From the NCBI RefSeq assembly GCF_055900595.2, contig NZ_CM148325.1: a stretch of 64,000 nucleotides of DNA; one strand, written 5' to 3'. Shown piece after piece: positions 14,528 through 14,640 of this stretch. Within the stretch, counting starts at the first letter, position 1, and each line of letters begins with the position of its first letter. The translations under genes and the position numbers were made by a program. Under the pieces are notes generated by a model. That model saw only the letters and a program-made list of their open reading frames with translations. It had not been told where the DNA came from and searched no databases.

Positions 14528-14640
14528 CATTGATAATGATAACCAATATCATATGATAATTTTTATCATTTGCAAGCCAGAGAAATCCCTTGCTATCGGG
14601 TAAACCTATCGTTAGGATTAGCAATCATTATCATTTAGAT
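14528..14640. promoter_or_regulatory. Fur-box cluster in divergent yjjZ/fhuF promoter region
   Basis: tgataatgataaccaatatcatatgataatttttatcatt and gcaatcattatcatt resemble the GATAATGATAATCATTATC Fur consensus. Confidence 0.65.

What the first reader, a model, noticed from the sequence alone, without database searches (positions are those of the whole stretch)
14528..14640. Fur-box cluster controlling divergent yjjZ and fhuF
Multiple overlapping matches to the Fur consensus lie between the two starts, indicating both genes are iron-repressed from a shared region.
Basis: partly seen in the sequence, partly recalled or inferred. Interest (0 to 1): 0.2.

Follow-up and report, generated by a model that had tools for sequence, protein, structure and literature searches.

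The report
Known Fur operators between yjjZ, fhuF
The 140-base gap between the E. coli genes yjjZ and fhuF holds two clusters of binding sites for the iron-sensing repressor Fur, one over each gene's promoter; this control region has already been footprinted and published, so the finding is correct but ordinary.

Summary
I built a Fur weight matrix from 16 experimentally shown K-12 Fur sites, none of them from fhuF. Its four best hits in the whole 64-kb window all fall in the yjjZ-fhuF spacer: 14552-14570 (21.0 bits), 14535-14553 (20.6), 14529-14547 (15.7) and 14617-14635 (14.1). None of 5000 shuffles of the spacer reproduces this.

The sites form two clusters. These match the published DNase I footprints fhuF1 (high affinity, window 14525-14577) and fhuF2 (low affinity, 14607-14660) of Chen et al. 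2007. Cluster 1 covers the mapped yjjZ promoter and start site (14540, minus strand). Cluster 2 covers the fhuF -10 and start site (14623/4). Published ChIP-exo, delta-fur and reporter data put both genes in the core Fur regulon.

One refinement may be new. In 63 of the 73 Enterobacteriaceae loci where yjjZ was found, a GGDEF gene separates yjjZ from fhuF. There, cluster 1 stays with yjjZ and cluster 2 stays with fhuF. The "shared region" in Escherichia is therefore two independent promoter-operator modules, fused by loss of about 1.3 kb, with the junction near 14578-14582.

The region is already known and of low interest.

The parts
14277..14513 (-). yjjZ coding sequence (78 aa, DUF1435 small membrane protein)
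   Evidence: ORF. Pfam PF07256, E=9e-36. Annotated yjjZ in E. coli genomes.
14654..15442 (+). fhuF coding sequence (262 aa ferric-siderophore reductase, 2Fe-2S)
   Evidence: ORF. Pfam FhuF and FhuF_C. Annotation.
14514..14653 (.). yjjZ-fhuF divergent spacer (140 bp, 32% GC)
   Evidence: 97.1% identical to K-12, against about 91% for the flanking coding sequences.
14525..14577 (.). Fur cluster 1. This is the published high-affinity DNase I footprint 'fhuF1', mapped from K-12; it covers yjjZ positions about +16 to -37.
   Evidence: Chen et al. 2007, Table 3 and Fig. 5. Coordinates mapped through the indel-free alignment. Sequence identical to K-12 here.
14552..14570 (.). Fur site C, TATGATAATTTTTATCATT, 21.0 bits. 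It fills the yjjZ -10/-35 spacer.
   Evidence: Chen et al. give 22.3 bits for the site centred at the equivalent K-12 position.
14535..14553 (.). Fur site B, AATGATAACCAATATCATA, 20.6 bits. It covers the yjjZ start site and -10.
   Evidence: The highest-scoring yjjZ-proximal site scores exactly 20.6 bits (the same as site B) in most of the 63 loci that keep the GGDEF gene; minimum 17.0, median 20.6.
14529..14547 (.). Fur site A, ATTGATAATGATAACCAAT, 15.7 bits, shifted 6 bp from site B.
14607..14660 (.). Fur cluster 2. This is the published low-affinity footprint 'fhuF2', mapped from K-12; it covers fhuF positions about -17 to +37.
   Evidence: Chen et al. 2007, mapped. The window differs from K-12 at 14612 and 14615 inside this footprint, but not in the PWM sites.
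14617..14635 (.). Fur site D, ATTAGCAATCATTATCATT, 14.1 bits. It covers the fhuF start site and abuts the -10.
   Evidence: A site of at least 11.6 bits lies 10-60 bp upstream of the fhuF ATG in all 80 loci.
14623..14641 (.). Fur site E, AATCATTATCATTTAGATT, 5.8 bits, shifted 6 bp from site D.
   Evidence: Chen et al. report a second, weaker walker (9.3 bits) in this cluster.
14548..14575 (-). yjjZ sigma-70 promoter TTGCAA-16-TATGAT (-35 at 14575-14570, -10 at 14553-14548).
   Evidence: Consensus scan. The same hexamers are given by Shimada 2014 and by the ROSE paper.
14540..14540 (-). yjjZ transcription start (K-12 4,605,777, 27 nt upstream of the ATG).
   Evidence: PMC10301672, mapped.
14590..14618 (+). 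Likely fhuF promoter: -35 TTGCTA (14590-14595), 17-bp spacer, -10 TAGGAT (14613-14618; TATGAT in K-12).
   Evidence: Inferred from the published start site and the sequence. The -35 and -10 blocks are conserved across genera. Not found by the consensus scan.
14623..14624 (+). fhuF transcription starts (K-12 old coordinates 4603717/4603716).
   Evidence: Chen et al. 2007, Fig. 5 legend, mapped.
14578..14582 (.). Approximate junction left by loss of about 1.3 kb (a GGDEF gene) in the Escherichia lineage.
   Evidence: Left-block conservation ends at about 14577 and right-block conservation begins at about 14581-14583, against the 63 loci that keep the gene (raw sequences).

Best explanation
The spacer holds two Fur operators placed back to back, and each represses its own promoter by occlusion.

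Cluster 1 consists of three strong sites at 14529-14570, two of them 6-bp phased and the third 17 bp further on. It lies over the yjjZ core promoter from about -30 to +12. With Fe2+-Fur bound, RNA polymerase cannot use TTGCAA-16-TATGAT, so yjjZ is silent when iron is replete.

Cluster 2 consists of one moderate and one weak site at 14617-14641. It lies over the fhuF -10 and start site. It has lower affinity, so fhuF should be released at milder iron limitation or Fur titration.

Shown in published experiments on K-12: the two footprints and their relative affinity, both start sites, derepression of yjjZ in delta-fur, and Fur binding in vivo.

Shown here: the PWM scores, their statistical significance, the positions of the sites relative to the promoters, and the fact that the two clusters are separable modules across Enterobacteriaceae.

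Inferred: that each cluster is sufficient for its own gene, and that the adjacency in Escherichia arose by deletion of an intervening GGDEF gene.
For: PWM scan and shuffles.

Footprints fhuF1 and fhuF2, with H protected at 50 nM Fur and L only weakly, plus the fhuF start sites.

yjjZ start site, silence in wild type, activity in delta-fur and in vitro.

Promoter hexamers.

Core-regulon membership of both genes. Salmonella yjjZ iron and Fur repression.

Comparative test: in 63 loci where a 354-aa GGDEF gene separates the two genes, 63/63 keep a site of at least 17 bits within 10-80 bp upstream of yjjZ (mean 2.5 sites of at least 10 bits). 63/63 keep a site of at least 11.6 bits within 10-60 bp upstream of fhuF (62/63 at least 14 bits; mean 1.0 site). 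Only 5/63 have a site of at least 14 bits in the 1.3 kb between.

Sequence conservation follows the same split at about 14578-14582.
Against: No experiment separates the contributions of the two clusters in E. coli.

The stronger cluster lies only 54-95 bp upstream of the fhuF start. Fur is known to extend along DNA at higher concentrations (Chen et al. discuss 'secondary footprinting'), so cluster 1 could add to fhuF repression.

The fhuF -10 assignment is inferred: its hexamer ends 5-6 nt before the mapped start, and the consensus scan did not call it.

Nothing was measured in the strain that the window comes from. Its fhuF -10 reads TAGGAT, against TATGAT in K-12.
Confidence: 0.88

Rival explanations
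1. There is one shared operator. The high-affinity cluster 1 is the main control element for both divergent promoters, as at fepA-fes. Cluster 2 only assists, for example through Fur spreading or cooperative contacts from cluster 1.
For: Cluster 1 is the stronger binder. It is the only part that earlier consensus searches detected as the 'fhuF' Fur box. The -35 hexamers of the two promoters are only 14 bp apart. Fur gives extended secondary footprints.
Against: In 63 loci from many genera, fhuF keeps only its proximal site and sits 1.4 kb from cluster 1, so cluster 2 is an autonomous, conserved fhuF element. The footprints are two separate regions with an unprotected gap. Cluster 1 lies -54 to -95 from the fhuF start, outside the core promoter.
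Confidence: 0.1
2. The matches are chance products of an AT-rich intergenic region and have no function.
For: The spacer is 32% GC. The Fur consensus is AT-rich and resembles -10 elements. Other AT-rich parts of the window give the next-best scores.
Against: None of 5000 composition-matched shuffles reaches the observed pattern. The sites rank 1-4 of 63,982 positions. They are nearly invariant across genera while neighbouring bases diverge. Fur footprints them in vitro.
Confidence: 0.01
3. The strong conservation around cluster 2 (GGATTAGCAATCATTATCATTTAGATT) reflects mainly another regulator of fhuF, for example OxyR, with Fur secondary.
For: A review lists fhuF among genes that oxidized OxyR may repress. 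The OxyR consensus matches 13 of 20 specified positions at 14595-14631. From memory, Zheng et al. 2001 footprinted OxyR at the fhuF promoter.
Against: A 13/20 match is weak: 74 positions in the window score 13 or 14, and none scores higher. Fur protects this region directly. The PWM site here scores 14-24 bits in 79 of the 80 loci (11.6 in the Klebsiella MAG, L046; 62/63 of the separated loci are at least 14 bits). The Zheng 2001 paper could not be read. Dual use is possible and would not exclude Fur.
Confidence: 0.05

Closest known systems
E. coli K-12 fhuF promoter Fur footprints fhuF1/fhuF2 (Chen, Lewis, Shultzaberger, ... Storz, Schneider 2007, NAR 35:6762)
   Same: It is the same locus. 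Cluster 1 and the PWM sites of cluster 2 are base-for-base identical. My scores (21.0, 20.6, 15.7; 14.1, 5.8) parallel theirs (22.3, 20.8, 16.1; 14.6, 9.3).
   Different: The window's allele has 4 substitutions in the spacer (14515, 14582, 14612, 14615), one of them in the fhuF -10. That paper treats both clusters as 'the fhuF promoter' and marks only the yjjZ start codon. The assignment of cluster 1 to the yjjZ promoter, and the separability of the clusters, come from later start-site data and from my comparison.
fepB-entC divergent iron-regulated promoters of E. coli
   Same: It is a bidirectional spacer with two separate Fur-protected regions, one near each gene. Chen et al. Table 3 lists separate footprints for fepB and entC about 85 bp apart.
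   Different: Both of those genes belong to one pathway (enterobactin). Here the partners are a siderophore reductase and a small membrane protein of unknown function, and their adjacency is a recent product of deletion.
fepA-fes divergent promoters of E. coli
   Same: It is a divergent, Fur-repressed gene pair.
   Different: [quoted passage not shown] The yjjZ-fhuF spacer has two.
Extended Fur arrays such as the aerobactin iucA operator
   Same: Overlapping 6-bp-phased sites allow several Fur dimers to bind side by side.
   Different: The iucA operator spans about 100 bp with 13 walkers. The clusters here are about 42 bp and 25 bp.

Membership tests
Fur operator (Fur box array) of the E. coli iron regulon | Match to the 19-bp Fur box / 9-1-9 weight matrix within the range of validated sites | tested here: met
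   Scores are 21.0, 20.6, 15.7 and 14.1 bits. The leave-one-out range of the 16 validated sites is 7.5-27.0, median 19.6. The result holds with other training sets. Shuffle control.
Fur operator (Fur box array) of the E. coli iron regulon | Overlapping sites phased by 6 bp (or 3 bp), allowing several dimers to bind | tested here: met
   Site starts are 14529/14535, 14552/14558 (the latter weak) and 14617/14623. The phasing rule comes from Chen et al..
Fur operator (Fur box array) of the E. coli iron regulon | Sites overlap the core promoter or start site of the repressed gene | tested here: met
   The yjjZ start (14540) and -10 (14548-14553) lie inside sites A, B and C. The fhuF starts (14623/4) lie inside sites D and E. 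Start sites come, hexamers.
Fur operator (Fur box array) of the E. coli iron regulon | Direct binding by Fe2+/Mn2+-Fur (footprint or gel shift) | not testable with these tools
   Published for K-12 DNA that is identical over cluster 1 and over the cluster 2 sites. Not done on this strain's allele.
Fur operator (Fur box array) of the E. coli iron regulon | Expression of the flanking genes depends on Fur and iron | not testable with these tools
   Published for yjjZ and for fhuF in other strains.
Fur operator (Fur box array) of the E. coli iron regulon | Conservation of the sites in orthologous promoters | tested here: met
   All 63 loci that keep the GGDEF gene keep both a yjjZ-proximal and a fhuF-proximal site, and all 80 loci keep the fhuF-proximal site. 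Site columns are at least 95% identical while neighbouring columns diverge.
Single shared operator for divergent promoters (fepA-fes type) | One contiguous protected region serves both promoters | tested here: not met
   There are two separate footprints with a gap, two PWM clusters 46 bp apart, and the clusters are separated by 1.3 kb in most genera.

The most novel reading that the evidence does not exclude
The deletion that removed the GGDEF gene in the Escherichia ancestor placed the high-affinity yjjZ operator 54-95 bp upstream of the fhuF start. This created a composite control region in which Fur bound at cluster 1 helps load or stabilise Fur at the weak fhuF operator. The iron threshold of fhuF would then differ in Escherichia (and, independently, in Leclercia and Silvania) from that in Salmonella, Citrobacter or Enterobacter, where fhuF has only its proximal site.
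Probability: 0.12. Interest if true: 0.3.

Novelty: already known. Interest (0 to 1): 0.1.

Why it matters
It matters little beyond correct annotation. The region is a textbook Fur-controlled spacer. fhuF::lacZ is the reporter of the Fur titration assay, and both genes belong to the core Fur regulon.

The comparative result is a tidy small addition. It explains why the strongest 'fhuF' Fur box lies outside the fhuF core promoter: it is the yjjZ operator. That fits fhuF's use as a reporter in the Fur titration assay. It also offers a natural experiment, with genera that do and do not have the intervening GGDEF gene, for asking whether neighbouring Fur operators influence each other.

Tried and rejected
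- The strict 19-bp consensus with up to 3 mismatches finds only one of the five sites. It is too blunt, so I replaced it with a PWM.
- The supplementary site lists of Chen et al. are not held. I rebuilt the training set from their Table 3/4 coordinates, re-anchoring the 13 sites that have a published centre to annotated gene starts in NC_000913.3.
- Zheng et al. 2001 (OxyR at fhuF, PMC95352) is not held. The OxyR consensus count gives only 13/20 at 14595-14631. I leave this as an unverified lead.
- Shimada 2014 predicts the fhuF promoter as TTGATA-19-GATAAT, and the consensus scan finds a plus-strand TTGATA-16-TATGAT at 14530-14557. Both lie inside cluster 1, about 60 nt or more upstream of the mapped fhuF starts. 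They probably arise because Fur boxes resemble promoter hexamers. I rejected them as the main promoter but did not exclude a minor one.
- A literature search for STM4551 together with fhuF found nothing. Equating the GGDEF gene with Salmonella STM4551 rests on memory only.
- The next-best PWM hits (47678, 59205, 49064, and the 42232-42371 density) lie in low-GC accessory DNA: a type I restriction-modification locus and a pentapeptide-repeat/SdiA-regulated-domain island. I judged them compositional and did not pursue them.

Full report
**Where we are.** The window is E. coli chromosome. Around the finding lie rsmC (12585-13616, plus strand), three tRNA-Leu(CAG) genes (13917-14238, plus), yjjZ (14277-14513, minus; 78 aa, DUF1435), fhuF (14654-15442, plus; ferric-siderophore reductase), then bglJ and yjjQ. 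A 601-bp query across the spacer matches 5424 of 5426 complete E. coli genomes contiguously, so the yjjZ-fhuF adjacency is species-wide. The spacer is 14514-14653: 140 bp at 32% GC, with no indels against K-12 and four substitutions (14515, 14582, 12 and 14615 aside, see below: 14612, 14615).

I took the experimentally supported (footprinted or gel-shifted) Fur sites of Chen et al. 2007 from their Tables 3 and 4. I converted the coordinates to NC_000913.3. For the 13 sites with a published centre, I checked each against its published distance to the annotated gene start. I then extracted the 19-mers. Those 13 sites, plus the best 19-mer inside each of three further footprints (fepB, fur, tonB), give the consensus AATGATAATCATTATCATT. 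Leave-one-out scores run from 7.5 to 27.0 bits, median 19.6.

Scanning all 63,982 positions of the window gives these results:
- Ranks 1 to 4 are 14552-14570 (21.0 bits), 14535-14553 (20.6), 14529-14547 (15.7) and 14617-14635 (14.1).
- A fifth site lies at 14623-14641 (5.8 bits).
- The best score anywhere else is 13.5.

The controls agree:
- Among 5000 dinucleotide-preserving shuffles of the spacer itself, none has four sites of at least 14 bits, two have at least two such sites, and none reaches the summed positive score of 80.2 (shuffle mean 8.2).
- This is also the top 140-bp window of the 64 kb by a wide margin: 80.2 against 45.1.
- The ranking is the same with the 13-site and with a 7-site footprint-only matrix.

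**Comparison with published footprints.** Chen et al. footprinted exactly this region. Their high-affinity region fhuF1 is at 4603763-4603815 and their low-affinity region fhuF2 at 4603680-4603733. The fhuF ATG is at 4603686, the yjjZ ATG at 4603827 and the fhuF starts at 4603717/16. Because the alignment has no indels, these positions map as follows:
- fhuF1 maps to window 14525-14577.
- fhuF2 maps to 14607-14660.
- The fhuF starts map to 14623/14624.

Their information scores (22.3, 20.8, 16.1 for one cluster; 14.6, 9.3 for the other) match mine closely.

**What each cluster sits on.** The yjjZ start site is published at K-12 4,605,777, which is 27 nt upstream of the ATG and maps to window 14540 on the minus strand. 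yjjZ is silent in wild type, active in delta-fur, and strongly transcribed in vitro without Fur. Its promoter, TTGCAA-16-TATGAT (14575-14548, minus strand), is found by the consensus scan and was predicted independently by Shimada et al.. Sites A, B and C therefore cover yjjZ from about +12 to -30, and the fhuF1 footprint covers +16 to -37.

For fhuF, the mapped starts imply a -35 of TTGCTA (14590-14595), a 17-bp spacer, and a -10 of TAGGAT (14613-14618; TATGAT in K-12). Sites D and E cover -7 to +18, and the fhuF2 footprint covers -17 to +37. Both arrangements are classical promoter occlusion. Relative to fhuF, the strong cluster lies at -54 to -95, outside the core promoter.

**Expression evidence, all from the literature.**
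- fhuF::lacZ is the reporter of the Fur titration assay.
- Both genes are in the core Fur pan-regulon defined by ChIP-exo plus expression in nine strains.
- yjjZ is a direct Fur target in CFT073 and MG1655.
- In Salmonella, a yjjZ promoter fusion is iron-repressed and fur-dependent.

**Related loci.** I fetched 80 fhuF loci from one genome per species and located yjjZ in them by tblastn. yjjZ was found in 73 loci.
- yjjZ abuts fhuF (140-166 bp) only in Escherichia (4 species), Leclercia (4) and Silvania (2).
- In the other 63 loci (Citrobacter, Salmonella, Enterobacter, Raoultella, Kluyvera, Lelliottia, Kosakonia and others) a gene of about 354 aa lies between them, on the fhuF strand. It is a GGDEF diguanylate cyclase (Pfam E=4e-47). 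It is probably Salmonella STM4551, but that is from memory and was not tested.

This is a natural separation experiment. In all 63 loci the yjjZ side keeps a site of at least 17 bits within 10-80 bp of the yjjZ ATG (median 20.6; 2.5 sites of at least 10 bits on average). The fhuF side keeps a single site of at least 11.6 bits within 10-60 bp of the fhuF ATG (62/63 at least 14 bits; median 16.5). Only 5 of 63 have a site of at least 14 bits in the 1.3 kb between.

Column-wise conservation shows the same split:
- Window 14511 to about 14577 (yjjZ ATG through the yjjZ -35) aligns with yjjZ-proximal DNA of those species and then loses all similarity.
- Window from about 14581-14583 to 14656 (just upstream of the fhuF -35 through the ATG) aligns with their fhuF-proximal DNA.

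The Escherichia spacer is therefore two promoter-operator modules joined at about 14578-14582. Leclercia and Silvania have a different junction and a longer spacer, which implies an independent loss. Escherichia's nearest relatives, Salmonella and Citrobacter, keep the gene. Loss in Escherichia is therefore the parsimonious reading. This is an inference from established phylogeny; I did not build a tree.

**Mechanism and rivals.** The best explanation, at confidence about 0.88, is two autonomous Fur operators: a strong multi-dimer one for yjjZ and a weak one for fhuF.

The literal 'one shared cluster' reading is not excluded in E. coli. Fur can spread, and the strong cluster is near fhuF. But fhuF is under Fur-site conservation on its own in most genera, and the footprints are discontinuous (about 0.1).

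Chance AT-richness is refuted.

A role for OxyR at the fhuF -10/start region is plausible: a review lists fhuF among genes possibly repressed by oxidized OxyR. The consensus match is weak, however (13/20), and I could not read the primary paper. Such a role would be additional to Fur, not an alternative.

**Known or new?** The Fur boxes, the footprints, the start sites and the Fur dependence of both genes are all published. The finding is correct and already known.

I did not find in the searchable literature the assignment of 'fhuF1' to the yjjZ promoter combined with the deletion-fusion origin of the spacer (the library is limited). It is a modest refinement and would not surprise a specialist. 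Interest is 0.1.

Noticed in passing
window 14277-15442, compared with L001 (K-12): The spacer is 97.1% identical to K-12, while the flanking yjjZ and fhuF coding sequences are only 91.1% and 91.5% identical. This is unusually divergent for E. coli. YjjZ differs at 8 nonsynonymous and 10 synonymous codons. In one search, most complete genomes (4377) fall in the 90-95% identity band and 1047 in the 95-99% band, which suggests two allele classes at this locus.
   Followed up: partly
window 14613-14618: The fhuF -10 hexamer is polymorphic. It reads TAGGAT here and in most genera, TATGAT in K-12 (closer to consensus), TAGTAT in E. albertii and E. whittamii, and TATTAT in Salmonella arizonae. Basal fhuF promoter strength may therefore differ between strains.
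   Followed up: partly
L019-L094 (e.g. L035:316-1380), absent from window at about 14578-14582: A 354-aa GGDEF diguanylate cyclase gene lies between yjjZ and fhuF in 63 of the 73 loci where yjjZ was found. It is missing in Escherichia, and independently in Leclercia and Silvania. In the genera that keep it, the strong Fur cluster lies in the divergent yjjZ-GGDEF spacer, about 200 bp upstream of the GGDEF start codon, so that cyclase might itself be iron-regulated there.
   Followed up: partly
window 42232-42371, 47678-47696, 49064-49082: The next-best Fur PWM scores (13.5 and 10.6 bits, and a dense patch of weak sites) lie in the low-GC (34-41%) type I restriction-modification region near yjiS and yjiR. 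This region is highly variable between strains: only 1 genome covers at least 80% of 41.5-50 kb. The hits are probably compositional. Chen et al. list a predicted cluster upstream of yjiT in this general part of the K-12 map, but I did not test whether it corresponds.
   Followed up: partly
window 59205-59223 (within 58000-60500): A 12.3-bit Fur-like site, GAAAATAATGATTTTCGTA, lies in a 34%-GC accessory segment. That segment encodes a pentapeptide-repeat protein and an SdiA-regulated-domain protein and is present in only 637 of 5426 E. coli genomes.
   Followed up: no
window 14595-14631: The OxyR consensus (ATAGnTnnnAnCTAT-n7-ATAGnTnnnAnCTAT) matches 13 of 20 specified positions over the fhuF -10 and start site. 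This would fit the reported OxyR repression of fhuF, but the match is weak (74 positions in the window score 13 or 14) and the primary paper was not available.
   Followed up: partly
window 14530-14557 (+): A plus-strand promoter-like match, TTGATA-16-TATGAT (10/12), lies entirely inside Fur cluster 1 and points toward fhuF. No start-site evidence supports it. It is likely a by-product of Fur boxes resembling -10/-35 hexamers.
   Followed up: no
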